A stretch of DNA of 64,000 bases from positions 68,324,001-68,388,000 of the forward strand of contig OX597822.1 of NCBI GenBank assembly GCA_951406725.2. Reading direction: 5' to 3'. The notes beneath the pieces were generated by a model, which did no database searches, was not told the origin of the DNA, and saw nothing but the letters and a program-made list of their open reading frames with translations. The stretch is from Octopus vulgaris (lineage: Eukaryota). Position numbers and translations under genes: made by a program. Below, one piece after another: positions 1,830 through 21,739 of this stretch. Every line of letters begins with the position of its first letter. Positions within the stretch are counted from its first letter, which is position 1.

Positions 1830-2007
1830 ATATGCTTTATTAAAAAGCAGCAACAATATCACAAAAAAACTATTACTCAGAGTTTCAGGTTCCCGTTCGT
1901 CGGACAGTTTTGTTTATCATTCTAAATAAAACTGTCTGACGAACGGGAACGTGAAACTCTAAGTAAGAGTTTTTGTGATATTTTTGATACTTTTTAATAA
2001 TGCATAT
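1830..2007. mobile_element. Fold-back (inverted) PLE pseudo-LTR carrying two hammerhead motifs
   Basis: Imperfect inverted arms 1830-1911 and 1928-2007, each containing a hammerhead core. Confidence 0.7.
1928..1973 (+). ncRNA. Minimal type I hammerhead ribozyme motif (PLE type), slightly decayed
   Basis: aaaactgt-CTGACGA-acg ggaa cgt-GAAA-ctctaagta-agagtttt. Mirror copy on the minus strand at 1866-1911 has core CCGACGA. Confidence 0.65.
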
Positions 2008-9477: not shown

Positions 9478-9521
<44 letters not shown>

Positions 9522-9754
9522 TACATACAAATGTGTATATATGTACATATATATATATAGATAGATAGATAGAGAGAGAGAGAGGGAGAGAGAGAGAGAG
9601 AGAGAGAGAATCATACATATATACATGCATACATACATACATACATACATACATATGCATATATATTTATAAACATATATGTTTGTATATAAATGTGCAT
9701 GTATCACTACCCCCACCACCCCTCCCACATCTAGCTCATCCACCCCCTCCCCAC

Positions 9755-10324
9755 TTCAATAAGGGTCTGCGCTTCATTCACCCCCTCCGCTCCATCCAGT
9801 AACGAATTTCAGAACTGTGCTGATATTCATAGCTAGGCTATATGCACCATTCCAAAACACTCCACCTCCATCTAATGAAGAGGACTGCTTCGCCGACCTG
9901 GGCGCCGACCATCCCACTGGACGCCAGCTCCTGGCCAGTTCCAAGCAGTTGATCACTTTACAAGCAGCTACCAATGTGTTGTGGGGCTGGTTTAACTTTC
10001 GCAGGCGCCCCCCGACATTTTTAACATCTCCTCCGCCGAACACTCGGCTCTTCGTTGTCTCCGACGCCGCAAAGACATCATCATAAAACTGGCTGACAAG
10101 GGTGGAGACTTGGTGGTGTGGCGCGCAGACCTCTACAAGGCTGAAGCTCTCCTCCAACTTCAAGACACCTCCTTCTATTGACCCCTGCCCTCTGGACCCA
10201 TGCCCAACTACCAACAGACTGTGTCCTCCACTATCCATGACCTCATCTCCTCTTCCCGTCTCCTTTCCAATGCCTCCAATCTCATTGTCCACACTCCACG
10301 CATCCCACCATTTACTTCCTTCCC
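9755..10324 (+). pseudogene. Penelope-like element reverse transcriptase N-terminal fragment (Neptune-like), with stop and frameshifts
   Basis: Manual translation from 10023: NISSAEHSALRCLRRRKDIIIKLADKGGDLVVWRADLYKAEALLQLQDTSFY*PLPSGP...TIHDLISS...PR, then TIYFLP after a frameshift. Matches the PLE motif DIVIKPADKGGAVVV..Y..EA..QL.D..FY. Upstream FNKGLRFI matches L.KGL.F.P. Confidence 0.85.
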
Positions 10325-10342
10325 ATATATATATATATACAT

Positions 10343-11695
10343 AGCAATAATAATTCTCTAAAAGAGATATAGACAGTAACTGCTCGATAACATAAGGGAC
10401 TAAAGCCATCTGAATATGGCTAGGGACAAGGCAGGGTGGTGGGGGTGTTACTGTTGCATTTAGCCCCAGGCGAACATCGACGTCACCAGAAAGGCTCGAC
10501 ACCGTCACGGTGTCCTTATCCTGCAAAGGGAGGTAATTCTCCGATGAAGCGGAAACCACACACGGACCATGGTTTCAAGGTGTATTGCCTATCGTCGGCG
10601 TGTGGTAGGCTTCCGCTTCCTCGACGAATTCTCACTCTGCAGGATATTCATATATAGATTTTCAAGCAAAATACATTTGCTGATTTCGAAAATCTGTTCG
10701 AAAGCAATAATAATTCTCTAAAAGAGATATAGACAGTAACTGCTCGATAACATAAGGGACTAAAGCCATCTGAATATGGCTAGGGACAGGGCAGGGTGGT
10801 GGGGGTGTTACTGTTGCATTTAGCCCCAGGCGAACATCGACGTCACCAGAAAGGCTCGACACCGTCACGGTGTCCTTATCCTGCAAAGGGAGGTAATTCT
10901 CCGATGAAGCGGAAACCACACACGGACCATGGTTTCAAGGTGTATTGCCATATTCAGATGGCTTTAGTCCCTTATGTTATCGAGCAGTTACTGTCTATAT
11001 CTCTTTTAGAGAATTATTATTGCTTTCGAACAGATTTTCGAAATCAGCAAATGTATTTTGCTTGAAAATCTATATGAATATCCTGCAGAGTGAGAATTCG
11101 TCGAGGAAGCGGAAGCCTACCACACGCCGACGATAGGCAATACACCTTGAAACCATGGTCCGTGTGTGGTTTCCGCTTCATCGGAGAATTACCTCCCTTT
11201 GCAGGATAAGGACACCGTGACGGTGTCGAGCCTTTCTGGTGACGTCGATGTTCGCCTGGGGCTAAATGCAACAGTAACACCCCCACCACCCTGCCTTGTC
11301 CCTAGCCATATTCAGATGGCTTTAGTCCCTTATGTTATCGAGCAGTTACTGTCTATATCTCTTTTAGAGAATTATTATTGCTTTCGAACAGATTTTCGAA
11401 ATCAGCAAATGTATTTTGCTTGAAAATCTATATATGAATATCCTGCAGAGTGAGAATTCGTCGAGGAAGCGGAAGCCTACCACACGCCGACGATAGGCAA
11501 TACACCTTGAAACCATGGTCCGTGTGTGGTTTCCGCTTCATCGGAGAATTACCTCCCTTTGCAGGATAAGGACACCGTGACGGTGTCGAGCCTTTCTGGT
11601 GACGTCGATGTTCGCCTGGGGCTAAATGCAACAGTAACACCCCCACCACCCTGCCCTGTCCCTAGCCATATTCAGATGGCTTTAGTCCCTTATGT

Positions 11696-11698
<3 letters not shown>
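10343..11698. repeat. 360-bp tandem array with internal inversion (about 1.7 units in one orientation, about 2.1 units in the other)
   Basis: 10343-10949 has period 360; 10947-11698 is the reverse complement with periods 358 and 360; GCC microhomology at 10947-10949; (AT)n on both flanks. Confidence 0.95.
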
Positions 11699-11760
<62 letters not shown>

Positions 11761-11761
11761 G

Positions 11762-11808
<47 letters not shown>

Positions 11809-11972
11809 TTATATATACATATATATACACACATATATATGTATGTATACATTTATATATACACGTATGTTATATACGTATATGTACATATGTATCTGTA
11901 TATATATACATACATATCTTTATATACACATAAATTTACATATATACATATACTTACATATATATGTTTGCG

Positions 11973-12015
<43 letters not shown>

Positions 12016-12022
<7 letters not shown>

Positions 12023-12415
12023 GTAAGTAGCTTGCTAACCAACCACATGGTCCCTGGTTCAGTCCCACTGCATGGCATCTTGGGCAAGTGTCTTCTGCTA
12101 TAGCCCCGGGCCGACCAATGCCTTGTGAGTGGATTTGGTAGACGGAAACTGAAAGAAGCCCGTCGTATATATGTATATATATATATATATGTATGTGTGT
12201 GCTTGTGTGTCTGCTGTGATTGTCCCCCTAGCATTGCTTGACAACCGATGCTGGTGTGTTTACGTCCCCGTAACTTAGCGGTTCGGCAAAAAGAGACCGA
12301 TAGAATAAGTACTGGGCTTACAAAGAGTAAGTCCCGGTGTCGATTTGCTCGACTAAAGGCGGTGCTCCAGCATGGCCGCAGTCAAAATGACTGAAACAAG
12401 TAAAAGAGTAAAGAG

Positions 12416-12417
<2 letters not shown>
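12016..12417 (+). mobile_element. SINE family A, slightly 5' truncated
   Basis: Matches the family A copies. Confidence 0.9.
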
Positions 12418-12446
<29 letters not shown>

Positions 12447-13059
12447 AAAAAATGAAGTTCGAAAATGCTGCTGTATTATACAATTTTTAATTTTTATATA
12501 TACATTATAACATGTTTCAGTTCCTGAAATGAACCTTATCAAAAAAAAGTTATATATAAAAAGAGACAGCTCATGCCGTCAAACACAAGAAATTCATTTA
12601 TAATACACAACGGAGTCAGACATCTTAGAGTTCATGTATAGTTGATATATAGTTTGAAGTATATTTCAAAGTGTTCGATGCAGTGGCCCACGGTGGCGAT
12701 ACGTATTCAATACAAAAAACAGATCAAAGTGGTGGAAAGCGGTCAATACAGAAGATTGATGTTTCCGAAAGAGCGAGGAATTCATTTTTACCTTAAGCAA
12801 TTGTGATGACCCATGGTGGAAGTTCGCTGGGTGGTTCTAGTGATTTTTTGTGACATGCTTGGTTTTATAATGCCTGTTAGGTGGTCAATCTAGCGTAGCG
12901 TGACGTCATCAATGTTTTGACCAATCGTTTCGTTAGGTGGCTTTAATCAAGTGGAACGGGACGTCATCATTATTTTGACCAATCGCTGCATTATAACTCC
13001 CTCTTGTTTGTTTCCTGTCTTGACCAGTCGCTTCGTTAGTCAAGCATAGCGGGATGTCA

Positions 13060-20260: not shown

Positions 20261-20703
20261 TATATAAATGAAACATGTATGGTAAATGAACAAACGACAT
20301 AGCGTATACTGAATGTACATCCGGACGGGAGACAAACACAGAAGTTCCCTAACTATCAATCAATTTAGTAATATTCAGTTTCGCGCCGTAAATGATAAGG
20401 CTGAGAACTTCCTATACTGGCTGTGCCCGAAACAATTTTTTCTGGAGAATTTAGGGCCGAATGTAAACAAAACAAAGCAAAGCAGTACAAAATGGACAGG
20501 CGAAAGTGAATAAGTGTGATTTAGAAGGGTAGACAAAGACGAAATATATATATATAATTAATAATAAAAGGGTAAAATTAATTGATTCAATTAATTAATT
20601 AATCAATCAATGAATTAATTAATAATTTTACGAAGTAGATCGGTACGTTAAAATAACCTTTATAGTTAAAATTATACAAATATTCTATAATTATAAACAT
20701 ATA

Positions 20704-21068
20704 GGCGCAGGAGTGGCTGTGTGGTAAGTAGCTTGCTAACCAACCACACGGTTGCGGGTTCAGTCCCACTGCGTGGCATTTTGGGCAAGTGTCTTCTGCT
20801 ATAGCCCCGGGCCGACCAATGCCTTGTGAGTGGATTTGGTAGACGGAAACTGAAAGAAGCCTGTCGTATATATGTATATATATATGTATGCGTGTGTTTG
20901 TGTGTCTGTGTTTGTCCCCCTAGCATTGTTTGACAACCGATGCTGGTGTGTTTAGGTCCCCGTCAATTAGCGGTTCGGCAAAAAGAGACCGATAGAATAA
21001 GTACTAAAAGGTGGTGCTCCAGCATGGCCGCAGTCAAATGACTGAAACAAGTAAAAGAGTAAAAGAGT
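20704..21068 (+). mobile_element. SINE family A nested in the left arm of the fold-back
   Basis: Matches family A; absent from the right arm. Confidence 0.9.
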
Positions 21069-21227
21069 ATAATTATAATTAGCGGTCAGCTATTTGCTTC
21101 ATCACATACCGAATTTAGAAATAGGAGTTAAGATTTCCTTTTCTACTTCTGTAAGAATCTCCACGACAGTAACACACTTTTTTACGTAGGCAAAGAGAAA
21201 AGCAATGAATCAACACGACTCCGATTA

Positions 21228-21288
21228 GCCACAGACGCGTTTCGAGATTAAAGTGTTTTTAATTACTTACTTCTCTCTTCAGTGTAGC
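21228..21288 (-). ncRNA. Minimal type I hammerhead ribozyme (PLE type), intact core
   Basis: Minus strand reads gctaca-CTGAAGA-gaga(loop)tctc-GAAA-cgcg-TC-tgtggc: 6-bp stem I, 4-bp stem II, palindromic stem III acgcgt. Confidence 0.8.
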
Positions 21289-21739
21289 ATTTCCAATTAT
21301 AAAATTTGAAAGTGCTAGGGTTAAATATGCACACGATCTCGAAACGCGTCTGTGGCTAATCGAAGTCGTGTTGATTCAATGGTTTTTCTCTTTGCCTACC
21401 TAAGAAGTGTTACTGACGTGGAGATTCTTACAGTAGTAGAAAAGGAATTTTTAACTCCTATTTCTAAATTCGATATGTGGTGAAGCAATTAGCTGGCCCC
21501 TAATAATTATGTTTATAATTATAGAATATTTATATATATATATATATATATATATTTGAGGGCCTTCTACATAGTTCGCATTTATCAGATCCACTCACTA
21601 AGCATTGGTTAGCCCCGAGCTATAGTCACTATAGTATAGAAGAAGGAATTTCTCAAGGCACTGTGTCGTAGGTTTGAACTTGAAAGCACGTGATTGCAAA
21701 GCAAGCTTCTTTACCACACAGTCATGCTTATGCTTGATA

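What the first reader, a model, noticed from the sequence alone, without database searches (positions are those of the whole stretch)
10343..11698. Structured 360-nt multimer with fold-back: a retrozyme-like PLE passenger with no recognisable ribozyme
Seen: about 3.8 almost identical 360-bp units (differences I could find: one A/G site and one TA indel). They form a 607-bp arm and an inverted 752-bp arm joined at a GCC microhomology (10947-10949), with (AT)n on both sides. The unit is packed with hairpins: a 130-nt rod, the palindrome gacaccgt-c-acggtgtc (10498-10514), agccat/atggct, agattttc..agcaaa/tttgct..gaaaatct, and a stem at 10462-10496. Most wobble positions read as G-U on the strand that is + at 10947-11698, so the arms probably point outward with 3' ends at the (AT)n. 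The hammerhead-bearing fold-backs at 1830-2007 and 20545-21535 have the same geometry. Established: metazoan non-LTR retrozymes are tandem arrays of a few hundred bp carrying type I hammerheads, produce circular RNAs, and are thought to use PLE machinery; PLEs often leave inverted termini. Inference: this is a multimeric cDNA of a small structured, perhaps circular, RNA copied by a PLE RT. I find no canonical CUGANGA...GAAA hammerhead in either strand, so processing may use an unrecognised self-cleaving motif or a protein.
Basis: partly seen in the sequence, partly recalled or inferred. Interest (0 to 1): 0.75.

Follow-up and report, generated by a model that had tools for sequence, protein, structure and literature searches.

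The report
Penelope-footprint retrozyme with U4C hammerhead

Summary
The repeat and fold-back are real, but the claim of no ribozyme is wrong. Each unit has a type I hammerhead at the tip of the 130-nt rod (+11121-11166, +11481-11526, -10604-10559). Its core is CCGACGA (U4C) with a palindromic stem III. No shuffle of 1000 gave such a motif, and 8 of 14 pairs change on both sides across subfamilies and two sister families. A 33-nt unit motif has 2107 genomic matches. In 50 of 53 fold-back loci one arm ends at each of two fixed sites 44 nt apart, mostly in (AT)n; five informative loci show 12-13-bp duplications. Two young autonomous Penelope-like (PLE) families show the same one-of-each rule (12 of 12). 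Older subfamilies have U4; the C4 clade is the youngest. A U2-promoter-like ATCAG lies about 80 nt before the core in three families. Verdict: a non-LTR retrozyme with a variant hammerhead, likely moved by a PLE enzyme. Cleavage, circles and the partner element are not shown. This scan noted the same or sister families on other DNA of this genome.

The parts
10343..10949 (-). Left arm, 1.7 units; RNA 3' end at 10343 (the tail-bearing terminus, unit position 1)
10947..11698 (+). Right arm, 2.1 units; RNA 3' end at 11698 (the tail-less terminus, unit position 45); holds promoter-like motif plus two complete hammerheads, enough to release one 360-nt monomer (11161-11520) if it cleaves
10947..10949 (.). 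Junction of the two 5'-truncated arms, 3-nt microhomology
   Evidence: overlap 3 in L001
10343..10386 (-). 44-nt 'tail' between the two fixed termini, present on this arm only
   Evidence: concept from PMC11167929 and PMC8557442
11121..11166 (+). Type I hammerhead, U4C core at 11127-11133, GAAA 11149-11152, palindromic stem III, predicted cut after 11160
11481..11526 (+). Second hammerhead, predicted cut after 11520
10559..10604 (-). Hammerhead of the left arm, core starts at 10598
10919..10949 (-). Hammerhead cut off by the junction (3' half only)
   Evidence: sequence
11439..11568 (+). 130-nt rod = extended stem I carrying the hammerhead at its tip (same at 11079-11208 and, on -, 10517-10646)
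11401..11405 (+). ATCAG, like the conserved pentamer 57-61 nt upstream of this genome's U2 genes; 81 nt before the core (also 11043-11047 +, 10680-10684 -); predicted start near 11458-11462 (inferred)
10498..10514 (.). 17-nt hairpin palindrome downstream of the rod; sister families have a different palindrome at the same place
10332..10343 (+). Left copy of a 12-nt target-site duplication, marked by a single C in the AT run
11696..11707 (+). Right copy of the 12-nt duplication
11699..12007 (.). (AT)n-rich flank
9777..10325 (+). Bystander: frameshifted fragment of a PLE reverse transcriptase (53% identity to an intact family), head-on to the left arm, not continuous with it

Best explanation
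The locus is a young insertion of a 360-nt tandem repeat that carries a predicted type I hammerhead with a U4C core and has the two-ended footprint of Penelope-like elements, so it is likely a non-autonomous retrozyme copied by a PLE enzyme. Likely cycle: an snRNA-type promoter in one unit starts transcription about 25-30 nt before the next hammerhead and reads through the array (inferred); pairs of hammerheads, joined through the palindromic stem III, would cut out 360-nt monomers that a host ligase would close (by analogy, untested; the U4C core is probably slow); a PLE RT-endonuclease would nick both strands of (AT)n about 12 bp apart, prime one cDNA at each of two fixed sites 44 nt apart, copy one to many units, and the two 5'-truncated cDNAs would be joined by short microhomology (inferred from the footprints).
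For: Hammerhead: 3 hits in the locus, 0 of 1000 shuffles. On 14 sequences (7 of this family, 7 of two sister families) 98.5% of cells pair, 8 of 14 pairs change on both sides, 0 of 500 shuffles reach the covariation score, slid controls pair 26-42%; this includes the 3-8 core pair (CG, UG, UA) and the palindrome centre (AU to UA). Family: 2107 matches of a 33-nt motif and 404 exact matches of the hammerhead 33-mer. Ends: one terminus of each kind in 26 of 28 fold-backs among 39 position-ordered loci and 24 of 25 among 32 other loci, none with two alike; 62 of 66 termini of the ordered set abut (AT)n, five informative loci show 12-13-nt duplications. Autonomous PLE families show the same rule: 9 of 9 and 3 of 3 fold-backs with both ends readable. 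PMC11167929 shows a PLE protein nicking and extending both strands and starting at two internal sites. Arrays are homogeneous (L099: 13 units, 12 shared differences, 1 singleton; 5 loci have a variant private to the locus in all units) and 5' ends do not pile up at the cut site (14 in that window against 26 in a control window), as expected of a circular or uncut template. ATCAG: 17 of 20 U2 upstream regions at -57 to -61, and 74-82 nt before the core in all three families.
Against: Self-cleavage was not tested; U4C 'considerably decreases activity in vitro' (PMC3088659, passage), and the active folds are 12-18 kcal/mol above the minimum-energy fold. No pile-up of 5' ends at the cut site, so no genomic sign of cleavage. 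None of four intact PLE families checked shares 3' sequence with the unit (135-297 of 300 shuffles score as well). Outside the hammerhead there is little two-sided covariation inside the family (1 compensatory, 13 one-sided, 8 breaking). Some arrays are mosaics (L128, L131, L136) and this locus has an AG|GA pattern, which a single monomer circle does not give. The promoter rests on a 5-nt motif; an unaligned profile of U2 upstream regions found nothing, and runs of four T in the unit argue against RNA polymerase III read-through.
Confidence: 0.8

Rival explanations
1. Same element, but the hammerhead of the youngest clade is a vestige: uncut linear multimeric transcripts of existing arrays are the templates and no circle is needed.
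For: U4C is fixed in the youngest clade; hammerhead mutants do not affect PLE insertion in vitro (PMC11167929); 8 of 9 Xenopus retrozyme dimers showed no cleavage (10.64898/2026.07.22.740005); no 5'-end pile-up; mosaic arrays and the AG|GA pattern.
Against: The 3-8 pair was restored to C-G in the same clade and 102 of 122 units in the near-identical set keep the whole motif unchanged; arrays of 10-13 units are almost free of unit-specific variants and some carry private variants in all units. U4C supports viroid infection in vivo (PMC3088659, passage).
Confidence: 0.3
2. The unit is the pseudo-LTR of an autonomous PLE not yet found, and these loci are its truncated copies, expanded in place as a satellite.
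For: Same footprint as autonomous PLEs; retrozymes resemble pLTRs in Xenopus (10.64898/2026.07.22.740005).
Against: None of 71 loci parsed runs from the unit into an ORF; arrays of up to 13 units are bounded by the exact fixed termini on both sides; four PLE families have unrelated pLTRs.
Confidence: 0.07
3. One reading: processing uses an unrecognised ribozyme or a protein nuclease.
For: Rfam finds no ribozyme family.
Against: Rfam also misses the canonical-core sister hammerheads at gathering score, so that blank says nothing; the hammerhead is shown by covariation.
Confidence: 0.03
4. The inversion is a sequencing or assembly fold-back chimera.
For: Near-perfect 563-nt inverted arms.
Against: 53 loci with different junctions obey one asymmetric end rule and carry target duplications; a chimera would mirror one end and its flank.
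Confidence: 0.01

Closest known systems
Metazoan non-LTR retrozymes (Cervera and de la Pena 2020, PMC7229834; mussel 350-390-bp repeats, axolotl HHR_Amex2)
   Same: Tandem non-coding units of 150-450 bp, GC under 50% (45.8% here), one type I hammerhead per unit, long target duplications; HHR_Amex2 also has a U-U mismatch at the base of helix II.
   Different: Core is C3-C4 (U4C) in the youngest clade and U3-G8 or U3-A8 in older ones; two-armed inverted insertions with two fixed termini were not found in the parts read (no hit for 'inverted' or 'opposite'); expression and circles are shown there, not here.
Penelope-like elements with 'tail' (PAc, PMC11167929; structure summary in PMC8557442)
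   Same: Tandem plus inverted 5'-truncated copy, a tail on one end only, AT-rich targets, hammerhead upstream of the start sites.
   Different: No ORF; tail 44 nt rather than 30-40; here one end of each kind is close to a strict rule.
Minimal PLE hammerheads (Cervera and de la Pena 2014, PMC4209133)
   Same: Short palindromic helix III predicted to work as a dimer, extra base after A9, U3-A8 covariation.
   Different: Long extended stem I; U4C core.
U4C hammerhead variant of a viroid (cited in Perreault 2011, PMC3088659)
   Same: Same core change, reported weak in vitro but sufficient in vivo.
   Different: Here fixed in a clade of a genomic retroelement with hundreds of copies.

Membership tests
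Non-LTR retrozyme | Tandem units of a few hundred bp, no LTR, no ORF | tested here: met
   360-nt period, arrays up to 13 units; longest stop-free frames about 90 aa
Non-LTR retrozyme | Type I hammerhead in consecutive units | tested here: met
   with the non-canonical U4C core, which strict descriptors would miss
Non-LTR retrozyme | Dispersed, mobile copies with long target duplications | tested here: met
   2107 motif matches; 12-13-nt duplications at five loci
Non-LTR retrozyme | Self-cleavage of the RNA | not testable with these tools
   Only indirect: covariation for, no 5'-end pile-up
Non-LTR retrozyme | Expressed as circular RNA | tested here: inconclusive
   Only assembled contigs of runs guessed to be RNA were available
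Canonical hammerhead core | C3-U4-G5-A6-N7-G8-A9 ... GAAA ... UH | tested here: not met
   Position 4 is C in the first 100 of 404 listed exact matches; the one CTGA hit of this family among 13 (L038) is made by an inversion junction
PLE-mobilised element | Tail between two fixed termini, inverted 5'-truncated partner arm, AT-rich target | tested here: met
   same in autonomous families
PLE-mobilised element | Sequence shared with the pLTR of an autonomous partner | tested here: inconclusive
   No similarity to four intact families; other families not enumerated
Autonomous PLE | RT plus GIY-YIG ORF | tested here: not met
   No ORF in the unit; the flanking RT fragment is broken and head-on
snRNA-type promoter | PSE-like motif about 55-60 nt before the start | tested here: inconclusive
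   ATCAG at a conserved distance in three families and upstream of 17 of 20 U2 genes; start site not mapped

The most novel reading that the evidence does not exclude
The youngest, most successful clade spreads with a catalytically weakened (U4C) hammerhead, having passed through U3-A8 and U3-G8 cores, because slow or protein-triggered cutting keeps RNA circles closed; a dimeric PLE enzyme then primes both target strands at two fixed sites and rolls round such circles, each insertion recording both priming events.
Probability: 0.3. Interest if true: 0.65.

Novelty: new variant of a known kind. Interest (0 to 1): 0.42.

Why it matters
How animal retrozymes get back into the genome is proposed but not shown: PMC7229834 names PLEs as a candidate, and a 2026 preprint adds sequence kinship. 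A young family with hundreds of insertions that carry exactly the footprint of co-resident intact PLEs gives a ready substrate and candidate enzymes for an in vitro test. The natural series of cores (U3-A8, U3-G8, C3-G8 with C4) in one background lets one ask whether retrozyme spread needs fast self-cleavage. It also shows that strict CUGANGA searches and Rfam miss such families. It is not a new ribozyme class.

Tried and rejected
Rfam: no ribozyme at E up to 10 on 9500-12500 or 11075-11600, nothing at gathering score in the window or in six related loci; uninformative, since canonical sister hammerheads are missed too. Expression: no RNA holder listed. Contigs from runs guessed to be RNA include 390-nt pieces (unit plus 30) in X1, X5 and X6, which any tandem or circular 360-mer would give; depth on the unit was no higher than on neighbouring repeats; no conclusion drawn. 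Pieces of the unit were laid from two other organism labels (X5, 5 differences in 390; X17, 9 in 359). An apparent excess of 5' ends at the cut site (5 loci) vanished genome-wide: 14 of 20 matches were true ends in the cut-site window (6 indels or substitutions dropped) against 26 of 40 in the control (14 dropped); I sorted these by eye. The 'canonical' copy L038 is a junction artefact. Partner search: four intact PLE families, none similar. An unaligned U2 upstream profile gave no hit. One search had mis-set columns and was redone. HDV-like, twister, pistol and hairpin motifs were considered by eye from recall only and dropped once the hammerhead was found. Paper searches: 'hammerhead ribozyme' + 'U4C' gave 1 paper; 'octopus' + 'hammerhead ribozyme' gave 5, none on this family by the 4 titles and abstracts listed; 'Penelope, inverted, tail, twin priming' gave 1 unrelated review. 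Supplements were not read; those of PMC7229834 and of the 2026 preprint may list such families.

Full report
Observation. The locus is as described: a 607-nt arm (10343-10949) and an inverted 752-nt arm (10947-11698) of a 360-nt unit, over 99% alike, sharing 3 bases at the junction, with (AT)n outside. The strand that is + in the right arm folds better (z -6.41 against -4.51). Unit positions below (u) count from 10343.

The ribozyme is there. On that strand each complete unit reads as a type I hammerhead: stem I 11121-11126 with 11161-11166, core CCGACGA, a 3-bp stem II closed by a U-U mismatch, GAAA, an 8-nt palindromic stem III and UC at the cut site. A relaxed descriptor over the window found this motif three times in the locus and one canonical hammerhead at -21282; 0 of 1000 shuffles of the unit gave any hit. 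The deviation is C for U at position 4. I aligned 7 distinct motifs of this family with 7 from two older sister families, chosen from the 33 distinct motifs listed by dropping junction-cut and damaged copies. There 98.5% of cells pair, 8 of 14 pairs change on both sides, and no shuffle of 500 reaches the covariation score; slid controls pair 26-42%. The rows are related and hand-picked, so this is support, not a probability. Rfam misses both this and the canonical sisters.

History of the core. In 68 units from 29 position-ordered loci the core was CCGATGA 39, CCGACGA 17, TTGATGA 5, TTGATAA 4 and TTGACGA 3; the palindrome centre switches between AT and TA. On a tree of 58 loci (of 71; those with a full 264-nt stretch) the two C4 types form one clade (100/99) with nearest-neighbour differences of 0.1-0.2, against 2.0-4.0 for the U4 types (CCGACGA is oversampled, the root is a midpoint). 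The sisters have C3-U4, so C4 is most likely derived and recent. PMC3088659 (passages) says U4C lowers activity in vitro yet allows viroid infection. The double-hammerhead fold is 12 kcal/mol, and two single hammerheads 18 kcal/mol, above the unconstrained fold. Activity is therefore open.

Family and footprint. A 33-nt motif from the 3' part has 2107 matches (2 of the first 100 belong to a sister family); at about 2.4 matches per locus that suggests some 850 loci, an estimate. I parsed the 39 family loci behind the first 100 matches and 32 loci picked by similarity. RNA 3' ends fall at u1 or u45. Of 28 and 25 fold-backs, 26 and 24 have one end of each kind, none has two alike, and three have one irregular end. 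Of 66 such termini in the ordered set 62 abut (AT)n; loci with a marker base show 12-13-nt duplications (L001, L028, L029, L099, L136; four further matches were uninformative), here 10332-10343 and 11696-11707. Junction overlaps are mostly 0-4 nt. This matches the PLE pattern of an inverted truncated copy and a tail at one end (PMC8557442, passages), which PMC11167929 (parts 1-2 of 4) traced to two internal start sites of an enzyme that nicks and extends both strands and is predicted to be a dimer. Two young intact PLE families in this genome follow the same rule in 9 of 9 and 3 of 3 readable fold-backs. None of four intact families shares 3' sequence with the unit, while the sisters do (0 and 1 of 300 shuffles), so the partner is unnamed.

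Template. Arrays are homogeneous for subfamily haplotypes, five loci carry a variant private (within my sample) to the locus in all units, and 5' ends show no pile-up at the cut site. That fits a monomer circle copied repeatedly, but also uncut transcripts of homogeneous arrays. Mosaic loci (L128, L131, L136) and the AG|GA pattern here need mixed templates, template switching or later conversion between arms.

Promoter. Following a lead from earlier scan notes, I compared U2 upstream regions: ATCAG lies at -57 to -61 in 17 of 20 (one more has ATTAG, two lack it). The same pentamer ends 79-82 nt before the core in 64 of 85 distinct upstream stretches of this family (many of the rest are cut by junctions) and 74-79 nt in intact sister copies. 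This would put the start about 25-30 nt before the hammerhead core. It is a 5-nt motif and remains a hypothesis.

Comparison. This meets the sequence-level definition of a non-LTR retrozyme (PMC7229834, parts 3-4 of 6 and passages; 10.64898/2026.07.22.740005, parts 1-3 of 5; PMC4209133, parts 1-2 of 4) except for the canonical U4. Cleavage and circular RNA were not testable. Shown here: repeat, hammerhead fold by covariation, core series, end rule, duplications, co-resident intact PLEs with the same footprint. Inferred: promoter, cleavage, circularisation, rolling copy, identity of the enzyme. Earlier notes of this scan describe the same or sister families on other DNA; they are not independent evidence.

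Verdict. Interest 0.42.

Noticed in passing
L164 (G000:C8:53365500-53375400) and 11 more loci: Very young intact PLE family: at least 150 copies identical over a 100-aa RT stretch, 4271-bp tandem unit, two overlapping ORFs (about 454 and 775 aa, sometimes one frame of 1136-1199 aa), two termini in (AT)n; no hammerhead found by my pattern.
   Followed up: partly
L176-L182: Second young intact PLE family (784-aa frame); by eye its pLTR holds a hammerhead with a U3-A8 core and palindromic stem III; two termini 34 nt apart.
   Followed up: partly
L089-L098; window 9777-10325: PLE family with an RT and GIY-YIG frame of about 1100 aa and a single fixed terminus; the window holds a broken relative next to the finding.
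   Followed up: partly
L031, L037, L040, L139-L163; L032, L033, L035, L041, L043: Two older sister retrozyme families (about 80% identity among copies of the first) with canonical cores and the same order of hairpins, 3' motif and tail.
   Followed up: partly
window 1830-2007: Fold-back with two hammerhead cores, one canonical and one CCGACGA; L094 holds another CCGACGA copy of that unrelated family, so U4C occurs in more than one family.
   Followed up: partly
L136: The two arms of one insertion belong to different subfamilies (three diagnostic sites), suggesting two RNA molecules were used in one event.
   Followed up: no
L104 (G000:C1:42381200-42387800): A retrozyme fold-back and a fold-back of the young PLE family sit side by side in one (AT)n run.
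   Followed up: no
L198, L205: Two U2 genes share an upstream sequence unlike all other U2 promoters and lacking ATCAG, possibly an element inserted at the U2 start.
   Followed up: no
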